Origin: Candidatus Avedoeria danica
GTDB taxonomy: Bacteria; Chloroflexota; Anaerolineae; Epilineales; Epilineaceae
Length of the DNA stretch: 64,000 nt
Reading direction: 5' to 3'
Assembly: GCA_016703025.1 (NCBI GenBank)
Contig: JADJCV010000003.1
Span: forward strand, 23,506 to 87,505
The position numbers and the translations under genes were made by a program. The notes under the pieces are model-generated. The model did no database searches and was not told the DNA's origin. It saw nothing but the letters and a program-made list of their open reading frames with translations. Shown here one piece after another: positions 7,321 through 61,441 of this stretch. The first letter of the stretch is position 1; the number at the start of each line of letters is the position of its first letter.

Positions 7321-7497
7321 TTGCGGCAACCGCGAAGTCCGCGGCCTCAAGTTGGACGTTTGCCTGATCGCAGCGGATCGAGCGTCGATCGACCCCATTG
7401 CTTTCCCTTCACACTCGCCGCACCATACGCGCCCGACATCGACCGGATCCGACGCATGACCCGCCGCCCAACCCTCGCCCGCCCCAAAGGTCCCCCC

Positions 7498-9777: not shown

Positions 9778-9808
9778 GGGCAGGTCCCCGTGCCTGCCCC
9801 TACAGGCC
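9769..9808. terminator. GC-rich hairpin (16-bp stem, 8-nt loop) between convergent maeB and the beta-propeller gene. Probable bidirectional terminator.
   Basis: ggcctgtaggggcagg-tccccgtg-cctgcccctacaggcc is a perfect inverted repeat that overlaps the maeB stop codon. No clear U-tract follows. Confidence 0.5.
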
Positions 9809-9838
9809 CACCCCACCCCACCACCACTAAAAATGCGA

Positions 9839-11989: not shown

Positions 11990-12131
11990 GGCGTCTGGCT
12001 CCCTTCGATGTTCCGGGCGGCACGTCGCCGGCATGCGCGCCGATGCGCTTGAAAGCAGGCGGATGGTACTCCCTTGGGTACTCACGCGCCGCCACGTGTC
12101 GAGGCGCGTGCACCCGCGTATCATCGTCGTC

Positions 12132-13100
12132 ATGCCCAATCGCCCCGACCCCGCCAACCCGTTGTCCGGCGTGCGCGCGTCCGCCAGCCGGGCTGTCCGT
12201 GCCGCCATCGACGACGGTCCACCGCAGGCCGTCCCGTCCGCCCGCGCCACCGCCGACGCCAACCCCACCCCCCCCCACCGCCCCCGCCCCACCCTCGCCG
12301 ACGCCCGCACCGTTCTCACCGCCTTCGCCGCCCGCACCGCCCCCAGCCCGTGGCGCGCCGACCGCGCCGCCGTCGCCGCCCGCCTCGCCAAGGTCATCGA
12401 CCGCCCCGACCTTCTCCAGCAGCGCCGCCTGAACCTCTGCGGCCCAGCCGCCTTCCTCCGCGCCTGGGCGCATCATGACCCTGCCGCCTTCGCCCGCTTC
12501 GCCGCCGCGCTCTATGACGACGGCGCCGCGTCGATCGGCCCGCTCGTCGTCCGCCCCTCCGCCGGCTCGCTCGTCGACGCCGACCACGCCGCCCTCGCCG
12601 AGCGCTTCGGCCGGGGCTTCCCGGAGGCGGCCGATTGGATGCTCATGGGCGCGCTCCGCGACAGCGAGAACCGCGTGACCAAGTTCCGCGGCCTGCCGGA
12701 TGACGCCGTCAGCGGGATGACGTTTCCCGGCGAGATCGTGCGCTGGCTGCGTGCCACCGGCGCATACGCCGACGTCGCCGACCGGACGACGCGGCTCGTC
12801 CCCGCCGGCATCGAAGCGGCCTTCGCGCTCCGTCCGTCCGCCACCACCGACGTCCTCGTCCTGATGAACCTCCACCTGCTGCGCGAGATGCAGAGCCCCA
12901 CCGGCCGCCGCCGCGCCGCCAGCTACATCCTCCGCGGCTTCCCCGACCACTGGGCCGCCCTTGTCGCGCCCGTCGCCGATCGGCCCGGCGACCGGATCGG
13001 GCTTCGCATCTGGTCGTGGGGCACGGTGCTGGAGGGCGAGGTGCCGAAGGAGACGTTTCGGGCGAACTTCTACGGGGCGATCATCGCGGACCGGCGATGA
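12132..13100 (+). CDS. Hypothetical protein, 322 aa, with a possible Cys/His pair (NLCGPAAFL ... FPDHW). Function unknown.
   Basis: Good high-GC codon usage. Start chosen at MPNRPDP because a -10-like TATCAT lies 7 nt upstream (leaderless pattern seen elsewhere in the window). The alternative start at 12063 cannot be excluded. Confidence 0.55.
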   Translation: MPNRPDPANPLSGVRASASRAVRAAIDDGPPQAVPSARATADANPTPPHRPRPTLADARTVLTAFAARTAPSPWRADRAAVAARLAKVIDRPDLLQQRRLNLCGPAAFLRAWAHHDPAAFARFAAALYDDGAASIGPLVVRPSAGSLVDADHAALAERFGRGFPEAADWMLMGALRDSENRVTKFRGLPDDAVSGMTFPGEIVRWLRATGAYADVADRTTRLVPAGIEAAFALRPSATTDVLVLMNLHLLREMQSPTGRRRAASYILRGFPDHWAALVAPVADRPGDRIGLRIWSWGTVLEGEVPKETFRANFYGAIIADRR

Positions 13101-13197
13101 ATCACCGCCGCCGAACGCGCTCGCGTTCGTGCCCACCGCAGGAATCCTGCCGGCTCCGTTCCTGCCAATAACCCGTCCACCCGTCCTCCCCCGCCCG

Positions 13198-13644
13198 TCA
13201 CGCCCCTTCCCGCTCCACCATCACCGTCACCGGCCCGTCGTTCACCAACTCCACCGCCATCATCGCCCCGAACACGCCCGTCGCGACGTTCACCCCGTGC
13301 CCGCGGACCCGCGCCACGAACCGCTCGTACAACCCCTCGGCCGCCTCCGGCCGCGCCGCCCGCGTGAAGTCCGGCCGCCGGCCCTTGCGCGCATCGCCGT
13401 ACAGCGTGAACTGGCTCACGACGAGGATCTCGCCGCCCACATCGGCCAGCCCGAGATCGAAGTGCCCCGTCGTGCCGCCGAACAAGCGCAGCCCGACCAC
13501 CTTGTCGGCCAGCCAGTCGGCTTCGGCGGCCGTGTCCGTCGTCCGGACGCCGAGCAGCACGAGGTAGCCGCGCCCGACCGCTCCGACCACCGCGTCGTCG
13601 ACCGTCACGGATGCCCGCGCAACGCGTTGGACGAGCGCCCTCAT
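13198..13644 (-). CDS. dtd: D-aminoacyl-tRNA deacylase
   Basis: 148 aa from Met31 of the track ORF. MRALVQRVARASVTVDDAVVGAVGRGYLVLLGV...SQFTLYGDARKGRRPDF is a Dtd family signature (SQFTL, GxRPxF). Confidence 0.85.
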   Translation of the reverse strand: MRALVQRVARASVTVDDAVVGAVGRGYLVLLGVRTTDTAAEADWLADKVVGLRLFGGTTGHFDLGLADVGGEILVVSQFTLYGDARKGRRPDFTRAARPEAAEGLYERFVARVRGHGVNVATGVFGAMMAVELVNDGPVTVMVEREGA

Positions 13645-13684
13645 CGCCGCAACGGCGCCGCCACGCCAAGGCTCACGATGCCCA

Positions 13685-15871
13685 TTACCCCCGCGGCAAC
13701 GGCGGCACCGCCCCGTACCAGCCGCGCAGCACATCGCGCTGCGCCGTATCGCCGGACGCCCAGTAGGCCGCCGCGATCGCGCGCATCACCGCCGGTGACT
13801 TGGTGCCCTGCGTGAGGCGGGCCAGCGCCTTTCGCGCCGCGGCCGCGTGCCCCGGCAAGCCGGCCGTGCCCATCGTCCACAGGAAGTCGAACGCCTGCGG
13901 GTCCTCGGTCACCCGCTCGCCTGCCAGCCGCGCCGCGTGCACCGGCTGCGGCGTCGGGCCCTCCAGCAGCCGCCGGCACATCGCCAGCACGCTGTCGCCG
14001 CCCGCCTCCGCCGACGCCAGCTGGATCAGGTGGCGATCGATCTCGGCCACCGCGAACTGCAGGAACGGATCCACGGCCTCGGACGGGATCGTCCCGAGCA
14101 CCGCCAGGAGCAGCGCCACCGTCCGCGGCCCCCGGCGCTCGACGATGTCGCCGAGCGCCGCCGTCCAGCGCAGCCGCTCGTCCCCTTCCACTGCCGCCGT
14201 CCCCCGGCACACCACGTCGACGTCCCGCGCCAGCCGCTCCGCCTCCTGGATCCGGTCCGGATCGCCGTAGACCCGCAACGCCTCGACGAGCCCCTCCCGC
14301 ACCCGCGCGTCCGCGTCCACCACGGACTGCACGACGATGCTCGGCGCGTTCGGGAAGCCCATCGCCAGCATCGCCCTTCCGGCCGCCACCCGGGCCTGCG
14401 GTTGCGGATCGCGCAGCTGTTCCATGAAGGCGTGTGTGAGCAGATCCCGCAGCCGGACCTGCCCCGCCCCGAGCGCGGCGAGCGCGCTGAGCGTCGCCTC
14501 GCGCACCGTCACGTCGCGGTGCCGCAGCAGGCCCTCGAACCCGTCCACGGCCCGATCGACCGGCAGCCGGGCGTACCGCGCCGCCAAGCGCTCCGCCACG
14601 CCGGCGCGCATGTGCGCCGGCCCGTCCAGCGCCGACCGCAGCGCCTCCAGCGCGACGTCCTCGGCCAGCGGCCGCTCCGGATGGTCGATCGCCGCGATAC
14701 CGGCCGCCAGTAGGTGCGGGTCGCCGCTCTCGACGAGCACCTCGATCACCCGCCGCCGCAGCAACGGATCGCCCACCCGCCCGCTCAGCACCGGATCCGC
14801 GGCCTCGAGCGCCGCCCGCCGCACGGCCTCCTCCGGATCGCGCAGCGTCTCGAGGACCCGCGGCAGGAGGGCGATCAGCCGCTCCGTGTCCAACCCGAGC
14901 GTCCGCAGCTGCCGTGCCTTCTCCTCGCTGCTTCCGCCCAGCATCGCCGCGCCAACGCCCGGCCGCGCCTCGCCCCGCAACCGCAGCTCGACGTCGCTCG
15001 CCAGGCGCCGCACCTCAGCGTCCTGGCTCCCGAGCGCCGCGTCGGCCAGCGGCCGAACGGTGGGGGCCACCGCCTGCAAGACCGCGTCGTCCAGGTCGCA
15101 AAGCGCCGCCAGCGTCGCCGCGTGCAGCTCGGACTTCGGGAAATTGAACAACGTCGTCAGGATCCGCGCCCCTGCCCGCGGCTCGCCCGGCGGGAACGGC
15201 CCGACGGCCGCCAGCCGCACGAGCGCCCGCACGGCCGCTTCCACGGTCGGCGGATGACGATCGGACAGCGCGCGCTCGAAGCCGGTCCGGATGCGCAGGA
15301 CCAGCGGGGCCCAGTGGTCGGCCGGTCCGGCGGCGATCGCCTCGGAGAGCTTCTCGATCAGCACGCCGCGCGACCGGGCCTCGACATCGCCCGCCAGCGC
15401 CAGCAGCTCGCCGACCGCAACCTGCAGGGCCGGCCCGCTCTTCTCCGGCAGGTCGAGGTTCGCCACGTACGCCGCCAACAGCCCGCGCCGCAGCTGGTCG
15501 GCGATGACCTCGCGCGGAATCGGGGCATCCGCGAGGTCGTAGATCGTGGCGTCGACTGCGGCGCCGACTGCGGCGCTGGAATCGGCACCGGCAGTCGCAC
15601 CGGTCCCGGCCCCCGTGGCAAGGCCCCCCGGCGCCACCAGCAGCCGCGCCCCGTCGAGCAGCCACAGCGCCTGCCCCGTGGCGGCATGCACGCCGAGCGG
15701 GAAGCCGGGCTCCGCGTGCACCTCACCCGACCGAAGCGGGATCGAATGCGCGTGGTCCACCCAGCCGTCCACCTGCACGGCCAGCGCCACCATATCCCGC
15801 ACGCTGCCCACCTTGTCGACGCGATCGATGAGCGCGAGCGCCGCGTGCAGTCCCTTGGCCGTCAGCCGCAT
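13685..15871 (-). CDS. HEAT/ARM-repeat protein (PBS-lyase HEAT-like repeats), 728 aa, function unknown
   Basis: Long alpha-helical repeat protein with recurrent motifs (D/E)xxVRxxAxxAL(x)xLG. Strong codon bias. Divergent from the NFACT operon. Confidence 0.7.
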   Translation of the reverse strand: MRLTAKGLHAALALIDRVDKVGSVRDMVALAVQVDGWVDHAHSIPLRSGEVHAEPGFPLGVHAATGQALWLLDGARLLVAPGGLATGAGTGATAGADSSAAVGAAVDATIYDLADAPIPREVIADQLRRGLLAAYVANLDLPEKSGPALQVAVGELLALAGDVEARSRGVLIEKLSEAIAAGPADHWAPLVLRIRTGFERALSDRHPPTVEAAVRALVRLAAVGPFPPGEPRAGARILTTLFNFPKSELHAATLAALCDLDDAVLQAVAPTVRPLADAALGSQDAEVRRLASDVELRLRGEARPGVGAAMLGGSSEEKARQLRTLGLDTERLIALLPRVLETLRDPEEAVRRAALEAADPVLSGRVGDPLLRRRVIEVLVESGDPHLLAAGIAAIDHPERPLAEDVALEALRSALDGPAHMRAGVAERLAARYARLPVDRAVDGFEGLLRHRDVTVREATLSALAALGAGQVRLRDLLTHAFMEQLRDPQPQARVAAGRAMLAMGFPNAPSIVVQSVVDADARVREGLVEALRVYGDPDRIQEAERLARDVDVVCRGTAAVEGDERLRWTAALGDIVERRGPRTVALLLAVLGTIPSEAVDPFLQFAVAEIDRHLIQLASAEAGGDSVLAMCRRLLEGPTPQPVHAARLAGERVTEDPQAFDFLWTMGTAGLPGHAAAARKALARLTQGTKSPAVMRAIAAAYWASGDTAQRDVLRGWYGAVPPLPRG

Positions 15872-16024
15872 CGTCGTCTCCCATCCGGTGCGTTGGGCAT
15901 TCTACACGGACTGCCGCTGCGCGGCCCCGGCAGGGCAGCGGCGCGTCGGTGATTGCGCGCGTGGCCCGATGCGCCGGTCGGCCCGCCGGGCAGCGTCGGA
16001 CGGCTGGACGCCCCGGCACCCTTC

Positions 16025-16053
16025 TTGCAACGCGCCCGCGCCGCGGCGATAAT
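16025..16053 (+). promoter_or_regulatory. Sigma-70-like promoter TTGCAA-17 nt-GATAAT upstream of the small ORF / NFACT operon
   Basis: TTGCAA (16025-16030), a 17-nt GC spacer, then GATAAT (16048-16053). The SD-containing 5'UTR (GAGGAAAA) and ATG at 16115 follow about 60 nt downstream. Confidence 0.5.
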
Positions 16054-16114
16054 CGCGGCCCCCGCTCCCCAGCGCACGCCCGCCATCCCCACCTGCAGCA
16101 CGAGGAAAACCGAC

Positions 16115-16303
16115 ATGAAAGACGATTCGATCCACCTCCCCAACACCGACGACCCCGAGGTCATGCACCGCGCCGTCGCGGCGGCGCTCGTCGCCCTTTG
16201 CTGGGACGAGGTCATCCGCACCGCGGATCTCGACCACCTCGACGACAAGGCCATCGAGGTCTTCACCCGGGTCTACGAGGGCATCGGCAAGGCCTTCAAG
16301 TAG
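16115..16303 (+). CDS. Small hypothetical protein (62 aa) co-oriented with and immediately upstream of the NFACT/RqcH-like gene
   Basis: Met55 of track ORF 15953..16303. SD GAGGAAAA 7 nt upstream. Very high GC3. Sequence MKDDSIHLPNTDDPEVMHRAVAAALVALCWDEVIRTADLDHLDDKAIEVFTRVYEGIGKAFK. No family recognised. Confidence 0.55.
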   Translation: MKDDSIHLPNTDDPEVMHRAVAAALVALCWDEVIRTADLDHLDDKAIEVFTRVYEGIGKAFK

Positions 16304-16323
16304 CCGACCCACCCCACCCGCCG

Positions 16324-18168
16324 GTGTCGCTCGACGCGCTGGCGGCCGCCGCCCTGGCCGACGACCTCGGCTCGTTGGCCGGTGCCCGCGTGCAGAGCGT
16401 CACGGCGGTCGATCCGCGCACGCTGTGCTTCGAGCTCTACGCCGGCGAGCGCCGCTACCTGACGCTCTCCGCTGCGCCCGACCACCCCGGCGTCGTCGTC
16501 GAAGCCGCCCCGACGCGCCGCGGCGGCGGTGCGCCGTCGCCGCTCGCCCTCGTCTGCCGTGCCCGCCTGGACGGCGCGCGCCTGTCGGCCGTCGTCCAGC
16601 CGCCCCACGAGCGGATCCTGCGCTTCGACTGGAAGGCCGCCGCCCCGATCTCGCTCGTCGCGGAGCTCACCGGGCGCCTCGCCAACCTGATCCTCGTCGA
16701 TGCGGACGGCACGATCCTCGCCGCGGCGCACGCGGTCACCGCCGCCCAGTCGCGCGCCAGGACCGTGCTCCCCGGCCGCCCGTACGCCCCGCCGCCCGCG
16801 CCGCTCAAGGTCCCGCCGGAGTCCGTCACGCCCGACGACATCCGCGCCTGGCTCCACCTTGCGCCGAACGGCGAGGTCGCCTGGCGCACGCTCGTGGCGC
16901 ACGTCCGCGGCATCGGCCCGCAGACCGCGCGCGAGATCGTGTTCCGTTCCGCCGACAACGCTTCCATGCCTGCCGCCGACGCCGATCCGACGTCGCTGTC
17001 CGCCGCCCTCGCGGCCATGGCCGCGCTGCCGGCGTCGCATGCGTGGGCGCCGACGATCGCGGTGTCTCGGACGTCGACGGATGGGGACGATCCGGGCAAC
17101 GGCCGCGCGGTCTCGACGCGAGAGGACGGGGCCGGCGATGCCGCCGAATCCGGGCAGTCCACACCGCGCACCGCAACCGTCCTCGCCTGGGCCCCCTACC
17201 GCCTGACCCACCTCGCCGCCCCCGATGTCGCCCTCGTCGACTGCCCAACGACGCTCGATGCCCTCGCCCGCTGGCACGGCGCCCGGTCCTCCGCCGACCG
17301 CTACCGCGCCGCCCGCGCCGGCGTGGTGACCGCGTTGGCGGCCGCGACGGCCCGGGTACGGCGGCGGCGCGAGGCCCTTGAGCACCAGTTGGCCGGGGCA
17401 TCGCCGGCGGCCATCGAGTCGCTGAAGGAGGCCGGTGACCTCATCCTCGGGTTCCAATGGCAGATCGCGACCGGCGCGACGACGCTCATCGCCCCGCTCG
17501 AGCCGCCGGTGACGATCCGCCTCGATCCCGATCTCACGCCCGTCGCGAACGCCCAAGCGTACTTCGACCGCTACCGCCGCGCCCGCCGCGCCGCCCGCGG
17601 CGTCCCGACGCGCCTTGCCGCCGCCCGCGCCGCCGAGGACACGCTCCTGCAGCTCGGCACCGACCTCGCCCTCGCCGAGAACCGCGCCGAGATCGACGCC
17701 GTGCTCGACGCGCTCGCCGCCACCGGCCTCGCCAGCAGCGTCGCCGCCGGCGCGATGAAGCGCCGCACCACGCCCACCGACGCCACCAGCCGGCCGCGCC
17801 GCTACACCTCGACGGACGGCCTGACGCTGCTCGTCGGCCGCAACAGCCGCCAGAACGAGGTCGTGACGTTCCAGCTCGCCGCCCGGGGCGATGCCTGGCT
17901 GCACGCCCGCGACGTGCCCGGCGCACACGTCGTCGTCAAGGCGGCCGGCCGAAGCGTGCCCGAGGCCACGCTTGACCAGGCGGCGGCGCTGGCCGCGTGG
18001 TTCTCGGCGTCGCGCGACGCGGCGGCCGTCGCCGTCGCCGTGACGGATGCGCGCCACGTCCGACGGCTCAGCGGCGGCGGCGCCGGCATGGTCACGCTGA
18101 CGCACGAGTCGACGCGCACCGTGCGGCCGGCCTCGCCGCGCGCCCTCGGCCTCGAGCCCGAGGCGTGA
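16324..18168 (+). CDS. NFACT-family protein (fibronectin-binding A / RqcH-like; NFACT-N domain plus DUF814/NFACT-R domain)
   Basis: GTG start 20 nt after the small-ORF stop. N-terminal VSLDALAAAALADDLGSLAGARVQSVTAVDPRTLCFELYAGERRYLTLS (NFACT-N). C-terminal LLVGRNSRQNEVVTFQLAARGDAWLHARDVPGAHVVVK is a DUF814 signature. The 125-aa upstream extension in the track ORF is Arg/Pro-rich low complexity overlapping the promoter and was rejected. Confidence 0.75.
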   Translation: MSLDALAAAALADDLGSLAGARVQSVTAVDPRTLCFELYAGERRYLTLSAAPDHPGVVVEAAPTRRGGGAPSPLALVCRARLDGARLSAVVQPPHERILRFDWKAAAPISLVAELTGRLANLILVDADGTILAAAHAVTAAQSRARTVLPGRPYAPPPAPLKVPPESVTPDDIRAWLHLAPNGEVAWRTLVAHVRGIGPQTAREIVFRSADNASMPAADADPTSLSAALAAMAALPASHAWAPTIAVSRTSTDGDDPGNGRAVSTREDGAGDAAESGQSTPRTATVLAWAPYRLTHLAAPDVALVDCPTTLDALARWHGARSSADRYRAARAGVVTALAAATARVRRRREALEHQLAGASPAAIESLKEAGDLILGFQWQIATGATTLIAPLEPPVTIRLDPDLTPVANAQAYFDRYRRARRAARGVPTRLAAARAAEDTLLQLGTDLALAENRAEIDAVLDALAATGLASSVAAGAMKRRTTPTDATSRPRRYTSTDGLTLLVGRNSRQNEVVTFQLAARGDAWLHARDVPGAHVVVKAAGRSVPEATLDQAAALAAWFSASRDAAAVAVAVTDARHVRRLSGGGAGMVTLTHESTRTVRPASPRALGLEPEA

Positions 18169-18265
18169 TCCGCCAGGCGAGGCCGTCAGCTCGCCCTTCC
18201 CGGCAGACCTCATCTCCCGATCCAATCCGCTATGATCGTCCTGTGCACCCTGAAGGAAGGCCGTT

Positions 18266-19447
18266 ATGAGACTCGCCGGGCGGATGGCCCACCTCACGCC
18301 GTCGCCGTCGTTCACCACCCTCGCCCGCGCCAAGGCCATGGAAGCGGCCGGGCACGACATCATCCACCTCGAGGTCGGCGAGCCCGACTTCGATACGCCC
18401 GCCAACGTCGTCGAGGCGGGCGTATCGGCGCTGCGGGGCGGGCACACGCGCTACACGCCCGCCGCCGGCGACATGGCGCTGCGCACCGCCATCGCGCGGC
18501 ACGTCGGCGAAACGCGCGACGTCGACGTCGCGCCGACGCAGATCCTGGTGGCGCCCGGCGGCAAGCCCGTCATCTACTACACGATCATGGCGCTCGTCGA
18601 AGCCGGCGACGAGGTGATCCTCCCCGACCCGACCTTCCCGAGCTACGCCACGATCACCGCCTACGCCGGCGCGACGCCGGTCTACGTTCCGCTCGACGCC
18701 GAGCGCGGCTTCGCGTTCGACGTCGATGCCTTCGCTGCCGCGCTCTCGCCGCGGACGCGCCTCGTCGTCCTGAACTCGCCCTCGAACCCGACCGGTGCCG
18801 TCCTGTCGGCCGACGACCTGGCGGCCATCGCCCGGCTGCTGGCCGATCGGCCGGACGTCGTCGTGCTGGCCGATGAGATCTACAGCCGCATGGTGTACGA
18901 CGGCGTTCACCGCTCGATCCTCACCGAATCCGGAATGGCGGAGCGGACGGTCGTGCTCGACGGGTTCTCCAAGACGTACGCCATGACGGGCTGGCGGCTC
19001 GGCTACGCCGTCCTTCCGCCCGCGCTCGCGCCCATCCTCATCGACCTGCAGAGCAACATCACGAGCTGCGCCGCCGACGCCACCCAGGTGGCGGGCCTGG
19101 CCGCCCTCGATGGCCCGCAGGCCGATGTCGAGGCGATGGTCCAGACGTTCCGCACCCGCCGCGACCGCGTCGTCGCCCGGCTGAACGAGCTGCCCGGGAT
19201 CCGTTGCGCCCGACCCGCCGGCGCGTTCTACGCCTTCCCGGACATCCGCGGCACCGGCCTGGACGACCTCTCGCTCGCCGAGGAGCTCCTCACCCACACC
19301 GGCGTCGCGCTCCTGGCCGGCCGCGGCTTCGGTCCGGCCGGCACCGGCCACCTCCGCCTCTCGTACGCCAACGCCATGCCCAACCTCGACCGCGCCCTCG
19401 ATCGCATGGGCGAGCACCTCACAGCGCTCGCCCGCGCCGGCGCGTAA
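18266..19447 (+). CDS. Pyridoxal-phosphate-dependent class I aminotransferase (aspartate aminotransferase-like)
   Basis: 393 aa. HLEVGEPDFDTP, NSPSNPTG and SKTYAMTGWRLGY (PLP-lysine region) are characteristic. SD GAAGGAAGG lies upstream of ATG 18266. Confidence 0.9.
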   Translation: MRLAGRMAHLTPSPSFTTLARAKAMEAAGHDIIHLEVGEPDFDTPANVVEAGVSALRGGHTRYTPAAGDMALRTAIARHVGETRDVDVAPTQILVAPGGKPVIYYTIMALVEAGDEVILPDPTFPSYATITAYAGATPVYVPLDAERGFAFDVDAFAAALSPRTRLVVLNSPSNPTGAVLSADDLAAIARLLADRPDVVVLADEIYSRMVYDGVHRSILTESGMAERTVVLDGFSKTYAMTGWRLGYAVLPPALAPILIDLQSNITSCAADATQVAGLAALDGPQADVEAMVQTFRTRRDRVVARLNELPGIRCARPAGAFYAFPDIRGTGLDDLSLAEELLTHTGVALLAGRGFGPAGTGHLRLSYANAMPNLDRALDRMGEHLTALARAGA

Positions 19448-19540
19448 ACAGCACTGCGCGCAGACACCACTGGGCGTAGACAGCACTGCCCCTAGACCGC
19501 ACTGCCCTCAGACAGCACTGCCCTCAGACAGCACGAACGG
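19445..19540. repeat. Six tandem 16-bp direct repeats (consensus YAGACAGCACTGCCCY) starting at the aminotransferase stop codon and ending 8 nt before the next gene's ATG
   Basis: The six units, each 16 nt, are taaacagcactgcgcg, cagacaccactgggcg, tagacagcactgcccc, tagaccgcactgccct, cagacagcactgccct and cagacagcacgaacgg. Confidence 0.6.
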
Positions 19541-19548
19541 AGTCCAAC

Positions 19549-20133
19549 ATGCGACTACTCGACCTCCCGCCGATCAAGCGGACCCGCCGCAACCATGCGA
19601 TCGAGCATGCCGCCGTCCACATCCTCGCCGCGCGCCTCCCGGGCCGCTCGATGGCCGGCCGCTCCGACGCCGGCGGCTTCTTCCTCTTGGGCGATCTCGA
19701 GACGCACGACGTCGAGCACGCCGTCGACGAGGCACTGCGCCGCCTGCCCGCCGAGCCCGAGCTGGCGATCCACCCGAACTGCGGCACGAACATGGTCGTC
19801 GGAGGACTGATCGCCGGCGCGGCCGCGACGCTCGCCGTGGCGTTCGTCCCGGCGCGCCACCGCGCGGGCGGGCTCGCCCTGTTGCCCCGGATGCTCCTGG
19901 CCGGCACGTTCGCCTCCGTCGCCAGCCAGCCCCTCGGCCCGGCCGCCCAGCGCCGCTGGACGACGCTGCCCGACGTTGCCGGTGCGCGCGTCGGTCAGAT
20001 CACGCGCTCGAAGCGCGGTCGGCTCACCGTGCACCGGATCACGATCGAGGACGGCCCTTCGACGGATCCGGCCGATGGGGCGGGTGATGCCGATGCCGTC
20101 GACAGCCGGCCCCCTGCCGTTCGCACGCCGTGA
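19549..20133 (+). CDS. Hypothetical protein (194 aa) with His/Cys-rich motifs (HAIEHAAVHIL, HPNCGTN). Function unknown; first gene of an operon with holA.
   Basis: SD ACGGAG upstream. The stop overlaps the holA start (ATGA). Codon usage typical. Confidence 0.6.
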   Translation: MRLLDLPPIKRTRRNHAIEHAAVHILAARLPGRSMAGRSDAGGFFLLGDLETHDVEHAVDEALRRLPAEPELAIHPNCGTNMVVGGLIAGAAATLAVAFVPARHRAGGLALLPRMLLAGTFASVASQPLGPAAQRRWTTLPDVAGARVGQITRSKRGRLTVHRITIEDGPSTDPADGAGDADAVDSRPPAVRTP

Positions 20134-21182
20134 TCGAGCTGCTCCACGGGGCGGACGCCTTTGCCGTCGCCGAGCGCGTGCAAGCCATGCGCGCCGCGTT
20201 TGCCGCGGAGGACGCGATGGCCGAACTCAACGCTTCCGTGCTGGACGGCGCTCGACTCACCGTGCCCGAGCTGCGGGCCGCTGCCGACGCGCTGCCGTTC
20301 ATGGGTGGGCGGCGGCTCGTCGTCGTGCGCGGGCTCGTCGGGCGCTGCAGTGCCCGCTCGGGCGAGAAGAACAAGGAGCGCCGCACCGCGCTCGCCAACG
20401 CGCTGCTGGCCTACCTGCCGCACGTCCCGCCGACGACGGACCTCGTCCTCGTCGAGGGCGAGATCGAAACCGACAATCCGGTGGCCGGCTGGCTGCGGAC
20501 CGCCGCCGGCCGCGCTTCGCCCGCAGACGGTGAGGCGAATGCCGTCGTTGCGCGCGCGTTCGACCCGCCGCCGCCCGAGCGCCTGCCGGCCTGGATCACC
20601 GCCCGTGCCGTCGGACGCGGCGGCGCGTTCGCACCGGCGGCCTCGTCGGCGCTGGCAGCCGCCCTGGCGCCGGACGGACCGGCCGACCTGTGGCGGGTGG
20701 ACAGCGAGGTCGAGAAGCTGCTGACCTGGGCGGGCGAACGGCGCGTCGAGGCCGACGACGTGGTGCGGCTCGTCGCGCCGATCGACACCGAGAACGTCTA
20801 CCGCCTCATCGAGGCGCTCGCCGAGCGGGACGGACCGGCGGCGGCGACGCTGCTGCACACGTTCCTGTCCAGCGGCGAGGAGCCGATCTCGCTGTTGAGC
20901 AAGATCGCCCGCCAGTTCCACCAGCTGGCCCACGTCCGGGCGCTGATGGACGGCGGCGTGCCGCCGTCCGAGCACGCGCGCGCGGTGGGCGTTCCGCCGT
21001 TCGTCGCCCGAAAGCTGGCCACACAAGCCCGACGCTTCTCGGCGCCGTTCCTCGACGCGGCTCTGAAGCGTCTCCTGGACATTGACGTCGGGATCAAGAC
21101 GGGTCGCACCGTCGCGGTGACGGCGTTGGACCTGTTCGTGGCCGGGGTATGCGGTACGGGTGCCGCGGCGAGAACGCGCTGA
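20130..21182 (+). CDS. holA: DNA polymerase III subunit delta
   Basis: 350 aa beginning MIELLHGADAFAVAERVQ. Matches HolA over the N-terminal clamp-loader fold. Translationally coupled to the upstream gene. Confidence 0.8.
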   Translation: MIELLHGADAFAVAERVQAMRAAFAAEDAMAELNASVLDGARLTVPELRAAADALPFMGGRRLVVVRGLVGRCSARSGEKNKERRTALANALLAYLPHVPPTTDLVLVEGEIETDNPVAGWLRTAAGRASPADGEANAVVARAFDPPPPERLPAWITARAVGRGGAFAPAASSALAAALAPDGPADLWRVDSEVEKLLTWAGERRVEADDVVRLVAPIDTENVYRLIEALAERDGPAAATLLHTFLSSGEEPISLLSKIARQFHQLAHVRALMDGGVPPSEHARAVGVPPFVARKLATQARRFSAPFLDAALKRLLDIDVGIKTGRTVAVTALDLFVAGVCGTGAAARTR

Positions 21183-21218
21183 TGCCCACCCCTCGTCGCC
21201 GCACTGCTCGATGGTCTT

Positions 21219-21310
21219 GGCGCCTGCGAAGGCAGGCGCGCGGTGGCGTGAAGCGCCACCCTCAGCGACGGCTTCAGCCGTTGACCTGAAGGCCTGAGTC
21301 CGGACTTCAG
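21219..21310. terminator. Cluster of four consecutive GC-rich hairpins between convergent holA and tal (REP-like / terminator region)
   Basis: The four hairpins are gcgcctgc-gaag-gcaggcgc, ggtggcg-tgaag-cgccacc, acggc-ttcag-gccgt and ctgaag-(gcctgagtccgga)-cttcag. Confidence 0.45.
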
Positions 21311-21319
21311 ACCCCCTGA

Positions 21320-22435
21320 CTACATCTTCCCCGCCACCGTCGCCACCACCGCCGCCTGCGCCGCCGCGAACTTGGCGACACCTTGGTGCGACAAGTCCTC
21401 CCCGACGGCCTCGAGGTCGATGCCGAGCGCCGCCAGCCGCGCCACGATGGCATCGGCCGTCGCAACATCCGCGTCGATCGTGCGTGCGACGTGGCCGTGG
21501 TCGCGGAAGGCTTCGTACGTGGCCAGTGGCAGCGTGTTCACGGTGTCCGGACCGATGAGCGGAGTCACGTACTTCAGGTCGTCGTACGCCGGGTCCTTGG
21601 CGCTCGTGCTGGCCCAGAGCACGCGCTGAACGCGCGCACCGTGGCGCGCCAGGCGCGCAAAGCGGGTGCTCCCGAAGACGTCCTGGAAGCGCCGATAGGC
21701 CCGTTTGGCGTTCGCCACGGCCGCCTGCCCGCGCAGGAGCGCGACGTCTACCCCGTCGGCCGCCAGCTTGTCCAGGCGATCGTCCACCCAGGTGTCCACC
21801 CGGCTGACGAAGAAGCTGGCCACCGACGCAATCGCATCGATCGGCAGGCCGTCGTGCTCGCGGCGCTCGAGCGCGTCCAGGTAGGCATCGGCGACCGCAT
21901 CGTAGTGGCACAGTGAGAACATCAACGTGATGTTCACGTTGATCCCGTCCGTCAGGCAGGTGCGGATCGCCGGGATCCCGGCGCACGTCGCGGGGATCTT
22001 GATCATGACGTTCGGTCGATCGACCGCTGCCCACAGACGTCGGGCCTCGGCCACCGTGCCCGCCGTGTCGTCGGCCAGCGCCGGTGCCACCTCATGGCTG
22101 ATGTAGCCGTCGACGCCGCCGGTGCGATCCCAGACCGGACGGAAGACGTCGCACGCCGCACGAATATCCTGCAGGGTCACCGCGTCGTAGGTCGCGGCCG
22201 GATCGAGGCCGTTGGCCGCCAGCGCGCCGATCTGCGCGTCGTACGCCGCGCTGTCCGCCACGGCGGCCTGGAAGATCGCCGGGTTCGAGGTCACGCCCCG
22301 GAGGTCATCCTCGGCGATCCAACGCGCCAGCGTGCCGTCCGCGAGCCACTCGCGGCGCAGCTGATCGAGCCACGGGCTCTGCCCGGCGGCGGCGAGCGCC
22401 GCAAGCGGGTTGGACGGAACATGCGGTTCGGACAT
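21320..22435 (-). CDS. tal: Transaldolase
   Basis: 371 aa. MSEPHVPSNPLAALAAAGQSPWLDQL, the active-site region MIKIPAT, and a TALDO family C-terminus. Confidence 0.9.
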   Translation of the reverse strand: MSEPHVPSNPLAALAAAGQSPWLDQLRREWLADGTLARWIAEDDLRGVTSNPAIFQAAVADSAAYDAQIGALAANGLDPAATYDAVTLQDIRAACDVFRPVWDRTGGVDGYISHEVAPALADDTAGTVAEARRLWAAVDRPNVMIKIPATCAGIPAIRTCLTDGINVNITLMFSLCHYDAVADAYLDALERREHDGLPIDAIASVASFFVSRVDTWVDDRLDKLAADGVDVALLRGQAAVANAKRAYRRFQDVFGSTRFARLARHGARVQRVLWASTSAKDPAYDDLKYVTPLIGPDTVNTLPLATYEAFRDHGHVARTIDADVATADAIVARLAALGIDLEAVGEDLSHQGVAKFAAAQAAVVATVAGKM

Positions 22436-22524
22436 CGAGGAACCTCCGCGGGACTTGACTGTCGCGCTCCGCGCAGCGACGCGGGCAACCGCGAGGCGAG
22501 GCTACGGCGCCGCGCGCGGCAGCG

Positions 22525-23220
22525 TCAGGCCGCGGAGGATAGCATCGACCCGTCCAGCGTGCGGATCACGGCGATGACCTTGCCCTGGATCTCGACGTTC
22601 GACGGCGCCGCATAGATCGGCTCCATCGTCGGGTTCATCGGTTGGAGCCGGATGCGGTCGGGGTCGCGCTCGTGATAGTAGCGCTTGAGCGTGGTCTCCT
22701 CGCGGTCGCAAATCCAGGCCGCCACCATGTCGCCGTTGTTGGCGGTCTCCGCCCGCTGCATGACGACGATGTCGCCGTCGTTGATCAGCGCGTCGATCAT
22801 CGACGTCCCGCGCACGACGAGGGCGAAGACGTCCTCGCGACCGCCCACGAGATCGCGCGTCACCTCGATCCACTCGTCCGGGTCCTGGTCACCCGGCACC
22901 GGGATCGGCTGGCCGGCGGCGATGCGGCCGAGCATCGGCAGCCGCATGCGGCTCGAAGGCCGGAAGATCTGGTTGAACTCGTGCCGCGCCTTCTCCGTGA
23001 TCGACAACCCGCGCGAGATCCGGTCGTCGCGCGCGATCAGGCCGCGCTCCTTGAGCTTGTTCAGGTGGTAGTTGATGACGCTCGTCGAGCTGATCTGCAC
23101 GGCTTTGTGCTCGCCGATCTCGCGGATCGTCGGCGGGGAGCCGCGCTCCTCGATGCGCTGGACGATGAACTTGAGGATCTCAAGCTGCCGTGCCGTGAGC
23201 GGTCGTTCCGGTCGCGCCAT
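22525..23220 (-). CDS. lexA: LexA repressor (SOS regulator)
   Basis: 231 aa from Met20 of the track ORF (MARPERPLTARQLEILKFIVQRIEERGSPPTIREIGE, a wHTH). C-terminal S24 peptidase with the Ser region (VVRGTSMIDALINDGD) and Lys (TLKRY). SD GGAGG 7 nt upstream. Two Cheo boxes lie upstream. Confidence 0.9.
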   Translation of the reverse strand: MARPERPLTARQLEILKFIVQRIEERGSPPTIREIGEHKAVQISSTSVINYHLNKLKERGLIARDDRISRGLSITEKARHEFNQIFRPSSRMRLPMLGRIAAGQPIPVPGDQDPDEWIEVTRDLVGGREDVFALVVRGTSMIDALINDGDIVVMQRAETANNGDMVAAWICDREETTLKRYYHERDPDRIRLQPMNPTMEPIYAAPSNVEIQGKVIAVIRTLDGSMLSSAA

Positions 23221-23271
23221 GTCCTGCCTCCTCGCCCTGCGGGTTTGCCGGGTCTGCAGGCCAGTGTAGCG

Positions 23272-23283
23272 GAACACATGTTC
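23272..23283. promoter_or_regulatory. LexA operator (Cheo-type SOS box) GAACACATGTTC upstream of lexA
   Basis: cgGAACACATGTTCGa matches the Gram-positive consensus CGAAC-RNRY-GTTCG. Located 52-63 nt upstream of the lexA ATG. Confidence 0.7.
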
Positions 23284-23301
23284 GATGTCAAGATGTTCGT
23301 T

Positions 23302-23313
23302 GAACGTAAGTTC
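23302..23313. promoter_or_regulatory. Second LexA operator GAACGTAAGTTC upstream of lexA
   Basis: ttGAACGTAAGTTCGa, 30 bp centre-to-centre from the first box. The tandem arrangement is typical of lexA autoregulation. Confidence 0.7.
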
Positions 23314-23347
23314 GACGACTGGGGCCGCCCCTGAGCGGGCCCTCGCC

Positions 23348-23887
23348 TCACCGCAGCCCGACGCGCGCCTCCGGTGACCAGCGCCGGACGCCCGAGCGCG
23401 CCTCGGCCGGCAGCGCCGCCAGCAGCTCGCGGACCGTTCGCCGCAGGCCCGGGTGGACGAGGTCGGGCGCGACGTCGCACAGCGGGACGAGGACGAAGGC
23501 GCGCTCCGCCAGCCGCGGGTGGGGCACGCTCAGTCCGGGCGTTTCGAGCTGCGCATCGCCGTGGAACAGGAGGTCGATGTCGATCGGCCGGGGACCGAAG
23601 CGCGGCGCGCCGGCGTCGCGTCGGCGCCCCAGCGCTCGTTCGATCGCCAGCGCGGCCTCGAGCACCCGCCTGGCCGGCCAGTGGGTCCGGCCAAGGACGA
23701 CGAGGTTGATGAAGTCGCGCTGGTCCGCGAACCCGACGGGCGTCGTCTCGTACCACGGCGAGATCGCCACGATGTCCACGACCTCGCCGAGCTGGGCGAG
23801 CGCGCGCTCGATGTTGTGCGCCCGGTGGCCCTCATTGGCGCCGAGGGAGAACGCGACGAGCGTGCCGACCGGCGCCTCCGGCCGCAC
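23348..23887 (-). CDS. folK: 2-amino-4-hydroxy-6-hydroxymethyldihydropteridine pyrophosphokinase (HPPK)
   Basis: C-terminal about 175 aa of track ORF 23348..24664. VGTLVAFSLGANEG...ISPWYETTPVG...PRPIDIDLL...LSVPHPRLAERAFVLVPL matches FolK. No in-frame ATG, so a GTG start at 23887 is inferred. The upstream part of the track ORF is out of frame and overlaps the BNR gene. Confidence 0.7.
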   Translation of the reverse strand: MRPEAPVGTLVAFSLGANEGHRAHNIERALAQLGEVVDIVAISPWYETTPVGFADQRDFINLVVLGRTHWPARRVLEAALAIERALGRRRDAGAPRFGPRPIDIDLLFHGDAQLETPGLSVPHPRLAERAFVLVPLCDVAPDLVHPGLRRTVRELLAALPAEARSGVRRWSPEARVGLR

Positions 23888-24039
23888 CGAGCCGCCGCGA
23901 CCCCGCCGCTTGGCCTTGGCCGGGCCGGCCGCGCCGGCGACCGCCACATCCGTTGCCCCGACGCCCGCGTCGACGACGTCGTTCAGGACCCCGCGCGTGC
24001 CGTCGGCGACGCGGGCGGTCGGGCGAACGCGCGCGGACT

Positions 24040-28584: not shown

Positions 28585-28852
28585 GGGGCGATTATACCGT
28601 CTCGAGACGATGCGGGTGCGCCCCGGCATCGCGGGACGTTGATCGGGAGGATGATCGGGTGGTTGAGCAGGTGGTGGATCGGGTGGTTGATGCGGGCGCG
28701 CAGTGCGGATCGCACGTGCGGCCGGCCGCCTCACCGCTGCCTGCGCTGTGCTACACTTGCGGCATCGTCCGAGTCCGTCGGCAGGCCGATCGAGCCGTCG
28801 TCGGATCCCCGTTTTCGGATCACCAGGGACCCCAACAGCAGGAGTGCATGCC

Positions 28853-61348: not shown

Positions 61349-61441
61349 GCGAAGCGACGATCGGACATCGAACTGGCGTGCGCTCGCCACTCGCCCGGTG
61401 AGGCTCAGTGCTGTTCCATTGTCGGCTGTGCGGCCCACGCC

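What the first reader, a model, noticed from the sequence alone, without database searches (positions are those of the whole stretch)
19445..19540. Six tandem 16-bp direct repeats filling the entire intergenic space upstream of the hypothetical-protein/holA operon
The consensus YAGACAGCACTGCCCY is repeated six times head-to-tail, starting on the aminotransferase stop codon and ending 8 nt before the next ATG. The array is too short and lacks spacers to be a CRISPR array. A 16-bp period with a conserved ACAGCACTG core looks like iterated binding sites for a regulator (iteron-like) or a hypervariable simple sequence repeat that could modulate expression of the downstream holA operon. Both readings are inference.
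Basis: seen in the sequence. Interest (0 to 1): 0.55.

Follow-up and report, generated by a model that had tools for sequence, protein, structure and literature searches.

The report
Polymorphic 16-bp minisatellite between two genes
The 16-base repeat array is real, but it is a young repeat whose copy number varies between strains, sitting in the short transcribed gap between an aminotransferase gene and a DUF6391–holA gene pair of an uncultured wastewater Chloroflexota bacterium; it most likely arose by replication slippage and is not a conserved regulatory site.

Summary
Window 19440-19534 is a head-to-tail 16-nt array with five full units and a 10-nt partial one. It runs from the aminotransferase stop codon to just before the GGAG ribosome-binding site of a DUF6391 gene, which overlaps holA by 4 nt. 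No shuffled window reached its TRF score (0 of 100).

The iteron or regulator reading is not supported:
- There is no promoter-like site, terminator, stable RNA fold, Rfam match, DnaA box or rep gene.
- The core motif is not enriched elsewhere in the 64 kb.
- The array is not conserved.

The spacer differs in every lineage examined:

| Lineage | Flank identity (nt) | Spacer |
|---|---|---|
| Same species, 17 contigs | 99.4-100% | 5 or 6 units, a CT indel, three SNP sites |
| L059 | 96-97% | about 8 units, including a duplicated copy of the gene's last codons and stop |
| L060 | 93-96% | 13-nt period, 4 copies |
| L007 | 93-96% | no array |
| Outgroups | 76-85% | about 30 nt (57 nt in L011-L014); GGAG-type site where read (L010, L011, L015, L055) |

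The best reading is a clade-restricted minisatellite (VNTR) made by slippage between short direct repeats (TAG-N-CAGCAC) inside an operon spacer. It is probably co-transcribed and near-neutral. Any effect on DUF6391/holA expression is untested. This is an ordinary kind of element: interest is low, and it counts as a new member of a known kind.

The parts
19440..19534 (+). The 16-nt tandem array (minisatellite): 5.9 copies in TRF's phase. Unit 1 contains the last 5 nt and the TAA stop of the aminotransferase gene.
   Evidence: 0 of 100 shuffles reach its score. Copy-number and sequence alleles.
19445..19447 (+). TAA stop codon of the aminotransferase, embedded in repeat unit 1. Units 3 and 4 carry TAG at the same unit position.
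   Evidence: In L059 the gene end plus stop (CGGCGCGTAAACAG) is itself duplicated 2.1 times.
19525..19534 (+). Last, partial unit (CAGACAGCAC). This proximal copy is kept, with small changes, in the three close lineages, immediately 5' of the ribosome-binding site.
   Evidence: window and L007 CAGACAGCAC; L060 TAGACAGCAC; L059 TGAACAGCAC.
19539..19542 (+). GGAG Shine-Dalgarno-like site, 6 nt before ATG 19549. It is not part of the repeat and is identical in all same-species alleles and in L059, L060 and L007.
18266..19447 (+). Class I/II PLP-dependent aminotransferase gene (upstream flank).
   Evidence: (PF00155, E 1.2e-70)
19549..20133 (+). DUF6391 protein gene (downstream flank). Its N-terminus MRLLDLPP is shared with the close lineages (93-99% protein identity); the start is fixed by an in-frame TAG at 19477 with no ATG/GTG/TTG in between.
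   Evidence: (PF19928, E 3.9e-36)
20130..21182 (+). holA (DNA polymerase III delta subunit), overlapping DUF6391 by 4 nt.
   Evidence: TIGR01128, 190 bits against a cut-off of 80

Best explanation
The array is a young, clade-restricted minisatellite (VNTR) whose copy number varies between strains. It lies in the short untranslated spacer of a co-oriented aminotransferase-DUF6391-holA gene string in an uncultured Ardenticatenales-like Chloroflexota bacterium from wastewater.

Shown:
- The array is real and well beyond chance.
- Its unit number and sequence differ between strains and between closely related lineages.
- It is missing from more distant relatives, whose spacers are about 30 nt in most (57 nt in L011-L014), with a GGAG-type ribosome-binding site in those whose spacer was read (L010, L011, L015, L055).
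- It carries no recognisable promoter, terminator, structured RNA or origin features.

Inferred:
- It arose by replication slippage or unequal recombination between two short direct repeats. One (TAG-N-CAGCAC) sits at the stop codon. The other (YAGACAGCAC) sits just 5' of the ribosome-binding site.
- Each lineage amplified a different period: 13-14 nt or 16 nt.
- The array is transcribed as part of a polycistronic mRNA, as a C/A-rich, unstructured untranslated stretch.
- Selection preserves only its two borders, the gene end with its stop codon and the ribosome-binding site with the start codon.
- The array is neutral or nearly so. Its only likely physical effect is to lengthen the distance between the upstream stop codon and the downstream ribosome-binding site. 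That could loosen any translational coupling without changing the distance from the ribosome-binding site to the ATG.
For: Reality and significance.

Polymorphism within the species (17 contigs with identical or 99% identical DUF6391 protein, flanks 99.4-100% identical):
- Nine full-length contigs carry the window's allele. One contig cut inside the array agrees with it.
- Seven contigs carry variants, which combine a unit loss, a CT duplication and SNPs at three sites.
- Among the first ten contigs, the 104-nt spacer holds 4 independent variants. That is roughly six times the density of the ~40 segregating sites in ~6.6 kb of flank. The RqcH/aminotransferase spacer 18174-18212 is also variable, so this partly reflects relaxed constraint on intergenic DNA.
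- The CT variant sits on two different flank haplotypes.

Turnover between lineages:
- L059 (flanks 96-97% nt identical): 131-nt spacer with a 14-nt repeat x2.1 spanning the gene end and stop, plus 16-nt units.
- L060 (93-96%): 13-nt period x4.
- L007-9 (93-96%): 56 nt, no tandem repeat detected by TRF.

Outgroups at 76-85% nt identity: spacers of 30-32 nt in L010, L015, L057 and L058, about 31 nt in L055 and 57 nt in L011-L014. No array is seen in the spacers read (L010, L011, L015, L055); L057 and L058 were judged from called-gene coordinates only, and 31-32 nt leaves no room for one.

No constraint specific to the core: in L059 two units have a degenerate core (GACGACAT) with a perfect TGCCCC linker, and variable positions in the window's units fall in both core and linker.

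No regulatory signals:
- 0 promoter-like sites in 18000-21500, and neither of the two terminator-like sites found there lies in the aminotransferase/DUF6391 spacer.
- RNA fold z = +0.98 on the sense strand and +0.26 on the antisense strand.
- No Rfam match.

There is no start codon inside the array. A known class with the same layout exists: MIRU minisatellites lie mostly in intergenic regions and are thought to be transcribed within polycistronic operons (PMC3635867).
Against: Neutrality is inferred, not measured.
- Three related lineages all retain some form of repeat built on YAG-N-CAGCAC at exactly this spacer. This could reflect selection for the motif rather than shared ancestry plus a slippage-prone seed.
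- Most same-species contigs (9 of 16 full-length ones, plus one cut contig that agrees) share one allele, so the locus is variable but not extremely so.
- Co-transcription with the aminotransferase rests on the short spacers in relatives and the lack of a terminator or promoter consensus. There is no transcript data.
- Promoter consensus scans are calibrated on E. coli-type sigma-70 sites, and Chloroflexota promoters are poorly known.
- The rest of this genome could not be scanned. Only 64 kb was available, and the collection scans missed contigs known to carry the array.
Confidence: 0.78

Rival explanations
1. Tunable or contingency spacer. The array is transcribed, and its copy number modulates expression of DUF6391 and holA. 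It could do this by changing the distance to the upstream stop codon (translational coupling or re-initiation), mRNA stability, or access to the ribosome-binding site. Slippage would then create expression variants within the population.
For: - Copy-number alleles exist within the species and between close lineages.
- The array abuts the ribosome-binding site, yet the distance from the ribosome-binding site to the ATG is invariant.
- The sense RNA is less structured than most shuffles (z = +0.98), which would suit an open translation-initiation region.
- Tandem repeats upstream of genes have been linked to expression differences in other bacteria (PMC5179023, abstract).
Against: - The unit length (16 nt) and position (not inside an ORF, not between -35 and -10 elements) do not give the on/off switching that defines classic contingency loci.
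- holA is a housekeeping gene with no evident benefit from stochastic variation.
- One allele dominates the sampled contigs.
- Outgroups do without the array.
- No expression data exist.
Confidence: 0.12
2. Iterated binding sites (operator array or iteron-like) for a DNA-binding regulator that controls an internal promoter of the DUF6391-holA pair, or that handles replication.
For: - Direct repeats at regular spacing with a recurring YAGACAGCAC segment in three lineages.
- Each unit holds a weak CAG-NN-CTG half-palindrome, visible in the sequence.
Against: - Not conserved: the array is absent from relatives at 83% DUF6391 protein identity or less. Period and copy number also differ (13-14 versus 16 nt; 0 to 8 units) among lineages whose flanks are 93-97% identical.
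- The core is not enriched elsewhere in the window: 10 hits at one mismatch or fewer against 7.8 expected, and 5 of the 10 are the array itself.
- No promoter-like site.
- No DnaA-box cluster.
- No rep, dnaA or partition genes among the 15 surrounding genes scanned.
- The context is chromosomal housekeeping genes with conserved synteny.
- In L059 the core degenerates while the linker is kept.
Confidence: 0.06
3. A cis-acting RNA element, such as a protein- or sRNA-binding platform or a processing site, in the polycistronic mRNA.
For: The array is probably transcribed, and its motifs are repeated and single-stranded.
Against: - No Rfam family matches.
- There is no structure beyond the shuffles.
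- The motif is not conserved outside a narrow clade, and the units drift freely.
Confidence: 0.03
4. An assembly or sequencing artefact.
For: - Several contigs end inside or near the array: L054 starts in unit 3.
- Short-read assemblers can mis-resolve repeats.
Against: - The identical 96-nt array was recovered independently in nine or more contigs from different studies and assemblers, including a 1.2-Mb contig (GCA_963852785.1).
- The array is shorter than the assemblers' final k-mers (k127 and k141 contig names), so it can be spanned.
Confidence: 0.01

Closest known systems
Bacterial minisatellite / VNTR loci (generic class used for MLVA typing)
   Same: Head-to-tail units of about 10-100 bp in non-coding DNA. 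The unit number differs between strains. Adjacent units are the most alike. Change comes from gain or loss of whole units plus small slippage indels.
   Different: It is found in an uncultured environmental Chloroflexota population rather than a typed pathogen. Only one such locus has been seen so far. The unit length itself differs between sister lineages (13-14 versus 16 nt).
MIRU (mycobacterial interspersed repetitive units) of Mycobacterium tuberculosis
   Same: A tandem minisatellite sitting in an intergenic spacer between genes presumed to be co-transcribed in one operon (PMC3635867), with copy-number variation.
   Different: MIRU units are much longer (40-100 bp, from my own knowledge of Supply et al. 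1997). They are dispersed at many loci in the genome, and many contain small ORFs that overlap the neighbouring genes' stop and start codons. Here the unit is 16 nt, no second locus was found, and the array holds no start codon. There is no sequence relationship.
Simple-sequence contingency loci (phase-variable SSRs of Neisseria, Haemophilus, Campylobacter)
   Same: Slippage-prone repeats next to a gene start, creating heritable and reversible length variants.
   Different: Classic loci use 1-9-nt units placed inside an ORF or between promoter hexamers, so that length changes switch expression on or off. This array has 16-nt units, lies upstream of the ribosome-binding site, and does not change the reading frame or any recognisable promoter spacing.
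Plasmid or chromosomal iterons
   Same: Directly repeated units of about 16-22 bp at a regular pitch.
   Different: Iterons accompany a rep gene or origin with DnaA boxes and an AT-rich region, and are conserved as Rep-binding sites. None of this is present, and the array is not conserved.

Membership tests
Minisatellite / VNTR locus | Head-to-tail repetition of a unit of roughly 10-100 bp, beyond chance | tested here: met
   TRF period 16, 5.9 copies, score 99. 0 of 100 shuffles reach it.
Minisatellite / VNTR locus | Unit number varies between strains or close lineages | tested here: met
   5 versus 6 units within the species (L005 versus the others), and about 8 units in the lineage whose flanks are 96-97% identical, L059.
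Minisatellite / VNTR locus | Elevated mutability compared with flanking DNA | tested here: inconclusive
   Among the first ten contigs, 4 independent variants in the 104-nt spacer against ~40 segregating sites in ~6.6 kb of flank. Another intergenic spacer (18174-18212) is also variable, and the counts are small.
MIRU-type intra-operonic repeats | Located in the spacer between genes of one operon | tested here: inconclusive
   The genes are co-oriented. Most relatives have ~30-nt spacers. No terminator-like site lies in the spacer and no promoter-like site was found in the scanned region. There is no transcript evidence.
MIRU-type intra-operonic repeats | Units of 40-100 bp dispersed at many loci in the genome | tested here: not met
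   The unit is 16 nt. There is no other copy in the 64-kb window. The collection scans gave only isolated chance hits plus one unrelated array. The whole genome was not available.
MIRU-type intra-operonic repeats | Small ORFs in the units overlapping neighbouring stop and start codons (translational coupling) | tested here: not met
   No ATG/GTG/TTG on the sense strand anywhere in 19440-19548.
Iterons (replication-origin repeats) | Adjacent to a rep/dnaA gene, DnaA boxes and an AT-rich unwinding region | tested here: not met
   One DnaA-box-like hit in 64 kb against 1.4 expected, 12 kb away. The neighbours are housekeeping genes. GC is 0.69-0.75 throughout.
Iterons (replication-origin repeats) | Repeat sequence conserved among relatives as a protein-binding site | tested here: not met
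   The array is absent or restructured in relatives. Binding itself cannot be tested with these tools.
Phase-variable contingency SSR | Repeat placed so that unit gain or loss shifts a reading frame or the -35/-10 spacing | tested here: not met
   The array is non-coding, upstream of the ribosome-binding site, with no promoter-like hexamers.
CRISPR array | Repeats of about 23-55 bp separated by unique spacers of similar length | tested here: not met
   The units abut with no spacers and the period is 16 nt.
Known structured RNA (Rfam) | Match to a curated covariance model | tested here: not met
   No match at gathering threshold in the window. The local permissive scan gave only a chance snoRNA hit outside the array, E = 0.87.

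The most novel reading that the evidence does not exclude
The spacer is a recently born 'tuning knob'. Selection keeps a YAG-N-CAGCAC-based repeat at the boundary between the upstream stop codon and the ribosome-binding site in this Ardenticatenales clade. Slippage-driven changes in unit number or period would then adjust translation of DUF6391 and the clamp-loader delta subunit relative to the upstream aminotransferase. The alternative is that the units recruit a factor that binds RNA or DNA. Under this reading the series of lineages with 0, 4, 5-6 and 8 units would be snapshots of a regulatory element arising from a duplicated stop-codon context.
Probability: 0.08. Interest if true: 0.45.

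Novelty: new member of a known kind. Interest (0 to 1): 0.15.

Why it matters
Mostly it settles that this is not a regulatory or replication element worth chasing.

It has modest value in two ways. First, it is a clean natural series showing how a minisatellite is born and turns over. The series runs from no array to periods of 13-14 and 16 nt and from 4 to about 8 units, including duplication of a gene's last codons and stop codon. All of this occurs within lineages whose flanking genes are 93-100% identical. Second, the locus could serve as a strain marker for tracking this Ardenticatenales population across wastewater plants.

If unit number did affect DUF6391/holA translation, it would be an example of repeat-mediated tuning of a housekeeping operon in an uncultured phylum. 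Nothing here shows that.

Tried and rejected
- **CRISPR:** no spacers and a 16-nt period.
- **Replication origin or iterons:** no DnaA boxes, rep/dnaA genes or AT-rich stretch.
- **Promoter or terminator in the array:** none. By eye, TAGACA resembles a -35 hexamer, but nothing like a -10 hexamer lies 16-18 nt downstream.
- **Structured RNA or riboswitch:** no Rfam hit. Fold energies are no better than the shuffles on either strand.
- **Hidden small ORF or leader peptide, or an alternative upstream start for DUF6391:** there is no start codon in the spacer and an in-frame TAG lies at 19477.
- **Dispersed repeat family:** there is no other copy in the window. The single extra exact 9-mer at 61406-61414 has unrelated flanks.
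  - The genome- and metagenome-collection scans gave 29 hits, of which 28 are isolated single matches in unrelated taxa.
  - The one array-like hit, L031, belongs to an organism whose neighbouring gene is closest to Bacillota/Actinomycetota proteins. The search pattern itself selects for a 16-nt period, so I treat the resemblance as chance.
  - These scans are not exhaustive. They missed JGI contigs that do carry the array, and neither returned the window's own species.
- **Other tandem arrays in the window as siblings:** the other arrays with at least 4 copies have periods that are multiples of 3. The two checked against my rough gene map (28638-28696 and 36116-36181) lie inside genes. The perfect 15-nt repeat at 63058 is in frame with a probable gene start.
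- **** was an empty script run by mistake and yielded nothing.
Full report
**1. The observation**

Window 19445-19540 reads TAAACAGCACTGCGCG / CAGACACCACTGGGCG / TAGACAGCACTGCCCC / TAGACCGCACTGCCCT / CAGACAGCACTGCCCT / CAGACAGCAC-GAACGG. It is followed by AGTCCAAC and ATG at 19549. Tandem Repeats Finder places the array at 19440-19534: period 16, 5.9 copies, 83% matches, score 99, or 113 at period 32. The gapless repeat finder gives the same 16-nt register.

In 100 dinucleotide-preserving shuffles of the window the highest TRF score was 88. Arrays with a period of at least 10 and at least 4 copies occurred 0.15 times per shuffle. In the real window this is the only such array whose period is not a multiple of three.

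So the array is real and non-random. Three refinements apply:
- It has five full units plus a 10-nt partial unit.
- In TRF's phase it begins 5 nt inside the upstream gene, so the TAA stop is part of unit 1.
- GAACGG at the end of 'unit 6' is not repeat. It runs into a GGAG ribosome-binding site at 19539-19542.

**2. Context**

The window has about 72% G+C. The flanking genes are:
- 18266-19447 (+), a class I/II aminotransferase (PF00155, E 1e-70);
- 19549-20133 (+), a DUF6391 protein (PF19928, E 4e-36);
- 20130-21182 (+), holA (TIGR01128, 190 bits), overlapping DUF6391 by 4 nt.

An RqcH/NFACT gene lies upstream, and transaldolase and lexA lie downstream on the other strand.

The DUF6391 protein is identical to NCBI MBK6767856.1 from an 'Ardenticatenales bacterium' MAG. 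It occurs on contigs from wastewater metagenomes. The spacer contains no ATG, GTG or TTG on the sense strand, and an in-frame TAG at 19477 closes the frame upstream of ATG 19549. The gene start is therefore secure and the array is non-coding.

**3. Signals that a regulatory or replication element should show**

None was found:
- The region 18000-21500 has no sigma-70-like promoter. Its two terminator-like sites lie inside the DUF6391 and holA genes, not in the spacer.
- As RNA, the sense strand folds no better than shuffles (z = +0.98; 169 of 200 shuffles fold at least as well). The antisense strand gives z = +0.26.
- No Rfam family matches at gathering threshold in the window. A permissive local scan gives only a chance hit outside the array.
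- There is one DnaA-box-like 9-mer in 64 kb against 1.4 expected, and it lies 12 kb away.
- No rep, dnaA or partition gene turned up among the 15 genes scanned around the array.
- The 14-nt unit core with up to 3 mismatches, and the 9-nt 'conserved core' ACAGCACTG with up to 1 mismatch, are not enriched outside the array. The one extra exact 9-mer, at 61406-61414, has unrelated flanks.

**4. Comparison with relatives, which decides the matter**

*Within the species.* Seventeen contigs carry an identical or 99% identical DUF6391 protein, with flanks 99.4-100% identical. Nine full-length contigs have exactly the window's array, and L054, which is cut inside the array, agrees with it. The other seven carry variants:
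- L003 and L066 have a G-to-A change in unit 2.
- L063 has that change plus an A-to-T change in unit 1.
- L006 has a CT duplication after unit 5.
- L052 has the CT duplication plus a C-to-A change in unit 4.
- L005 has the L052 array minus one whole 16-nt unit.

Among the first ten contigs, the 104-nt spacer holds four independent variants, against about 40 segregating sites in about 6.6 kb of flank. Another intergenic spacer (18174-18212) is also variable. The CT variant occurs on two different downstream haplotypes. This suggests recurrent slippage or recombination, although chimeric metagenome consensus sequences cannot be excluded.

*Close lineages.* The spacer is rebuilt in each one:

| Locus | Flank identity (nt) | Spacer | Structure |
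|---|---|---|---|
| L059 | 96-97% | 131 nt | 14-nt duplication that includes the aminotransferase's last codons and stop (CGGCGCGTAAACAG x2.1, 100%), then about seven 16-nt units |
| L060 | 93-96% | 61 nt | 13-nt period x4 (TAGNCAGCACAAC) |
| L007-L009 | 93-96% | 56 nt | no tandem repeat by TRF; keeps TAGTCAGCAC after the stop and CAGACAGCAC before the ribosome-binding site |

In L059, two of the 16-nt units have a degenerate core (GACGACAT) but a perfect TGCCCC linker.

*Outgroups.* Relatives at 83% DUF6391 protein identity or less (76-85% nt) mostly have spacers of about 30 nt (57 nt in L011-L014). Those whose spacer was read (L010, L011, L015, L055) show a GGAG-type site and no array. For L057 and L058 only the 31-32-nt spacer length is known, which leaves no room for one.

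*Conclusion.* The array is confined to a narrow clade. Its period and copy number are unstable, and neither 'core' nor 'linker' is consistently protected. Only the gene end with its stop codon and the ribosome-binding site with the start codon are kept.

**5. Is the unit part of a dispersed family?**

A pattern spanning one unit and the start of the next (AGACMGCACTGCCCNNAGAC) gave 11 hits in the genome collection and 18 in the metagenome collection. Of these 29, 28 are single isolated matches in unrelated taxa. That is roughly the number expected by chance for about 17.5 specified bases (my own estimate). None is homologous to this locus.

The exception is L031. It starts with a 16-nt array of 5.1 copies (CCAAGACCGCACTGCC and variants) and also carries 7-, 13- and 15-nt arrays. 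Its one convincing gene is a YncE/alkaline-phosphatase protein whose closest named relatives are Bacillota and Actinomycetota. The pattern itself selects for a 16-nt period, so I treat this as a chance resemblance.

One caveat applies. These scans did not return JGI contigs that do carry the array (Ga0239335_0003593 and Ga0239331_002289). Negative results from them are therefore weak, and the rest of this genome was not available.

**6. Mechanism**

*Shown:* this is a real, clade-restricted, non-coding tandem array whose copy number varies, with invariant borders and no recognisable regulatory signals.

*Inferred:*
- Origin. Slippage or unequal recombination occurred between two short direct repeats already present in the ancestral spacer: TAG-N-CAGCAC at the stop codon and YAGACAGCAC before the ribosome-binding site. 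The TAG or TAA at the head of several units, and the duplicated gene end in L059, are copies of the stop-codon context.
- Transcription. The array is transcribed within an aminotransferase-DUF6391-holA message. Relatives' 30-nt spacers leave no room for a promoter and leader, and no terminator is present.
- Effect. It is neutral or nearly so. It lengthens the distance from the upstream stop codon to the ribosome-binding site from about 20 nt to about 75-120 nt, and leaves the distance from the ribosome-binding site to the ATG unchanged.

I put 0.78 on this reading, 0.12 on copy number actually tuning downstream expression, 0.06 on iterated DNA-binding sites, 0.03 on an RNA-level element and 0.01 on artefact.

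**7. Comparison with known kinds**

The array behaves as a bacterial minisatellite or VNTR locus and meets that definition: tandem units, beyond chance, with unit-number polymorphism.

In layout it most resembles MIRUs of M. tuberculosis. These are mostly intergenic and thought to be transcribed within polycistronic operons (PMC3635867). It is not a MIRU, however. The unit is 16 nt rather than 40-100 nt, no second locus was found, and there is no embedded ORF (the MIRU features are from my own knowledge of Supply et al. 1997).

It fails the defining features of iterons, contingency SSRs and CRISPR arrays (see the membership table).

**8. Verdict**

The 'iteron/regulator' interpretation is not supported. 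The 'variable repeat' interpretation is supported as far as variability goes, and any expression effect is untested. This is a new member of a known kind and of low interest (0.15). Its mild appeal is the natural series showing the birth and turnover of a minisatellite from a duplicated stop-codon context, and possible use as a strain marker.

Noticed in passing
L031:1-81 (also 570-735, 1091-1172, 4333-4413): A JGI metagenome contig (Ga0310811_10073858) starts with a 16-nt x5.1 array whose unit (CCAAGACCGCACTGCC) is nearly identical to the window's unit. About 1.3 kb of non-coding DNA follows, packed with 7-, 13- and 15-nt arrays, upstream of a YncE/alkaline-phosphatase gene. The nearest named relatives of that gene are Bacillota and Actinomycetota, so the organism is unrelated. 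I judged the resemblance to be chance, but this is not proven.
   Followed up: partly
window 63058-63096: A perfect 15-nt repeat (GCGCCGCCCAGTGTC x2.6). It is in frame with ATG 63040 and would encode APPSV repeats in an N-terminal extension of a Rossmann-type (VVVIGGGVCG) flavoprotein that runs off the window. It is probably a coding repeat, unlike the 16-nt array.
   Followed up: partly
window 21183-21319: The convergent spacer between holA and transaldolase is rich in hairpins. Six same-species contigs end at 21197-21290. L062 (ERZ1764613) diverges after about 21286 into sequence that is absent from the window. This points to a structural variant or a recurrent assembly break point.
   Followed up: partly
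window 19549-21182 and all related loci (L001-L015, L055-L066): DUF6391 is immediately followed by holA in every locus fetched, from 100% down to about 75% DUF6391 protein identity, and the two genes overlap by 4 nt wherever both were called. A family of unknown function may therefore be tied to the clamp-loader delta subunit in Anaerolineae and Ardenticatenales.
   Followed up: no
window 18174-18212: In the RqcH/aminotransferase spacer, contig L052 (GCA_020051655.1) differs from the window at 10 clustered positions, while the flanking genes are almost identical. This is a local patch of divergence, possibly from recombination.
   Followed up: no
window 19455-19464: The junction of units 1 and 2 forms a perfect 10-bp palindrome, CTGCGCGCAG, right after the stop codon. 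No T-run follows it, and the terminator scan does not score it.
   Followed up: partly
window 6000-24000: GC skew is strongly negative from about 6 to 20 kb, whatever the gene orientation, and then flattens. The cumulative skew has its minimum near 22-24 kb. No DnaA boxes accompany it, so I did not read it as an origin.
   Followed up: partly
window 15949-18168: An RqcH/NFACT ribosome-rescue homologue sits two genes upstream of the array. The longest ORF is 739 aa, but the genes called on related contigs are 574-614 aa, so the true start is probably further downstream.
   Followed up: no
collection scans: The metagenome contigs pattern scan did not return two JGI contigs that do contain exact matches (Ga0239335_0003593 and Ga0239331_002289). 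The genome-contig scan did not return the window's species. Negative results from these scans should be read cautiously.
   Followed up: no
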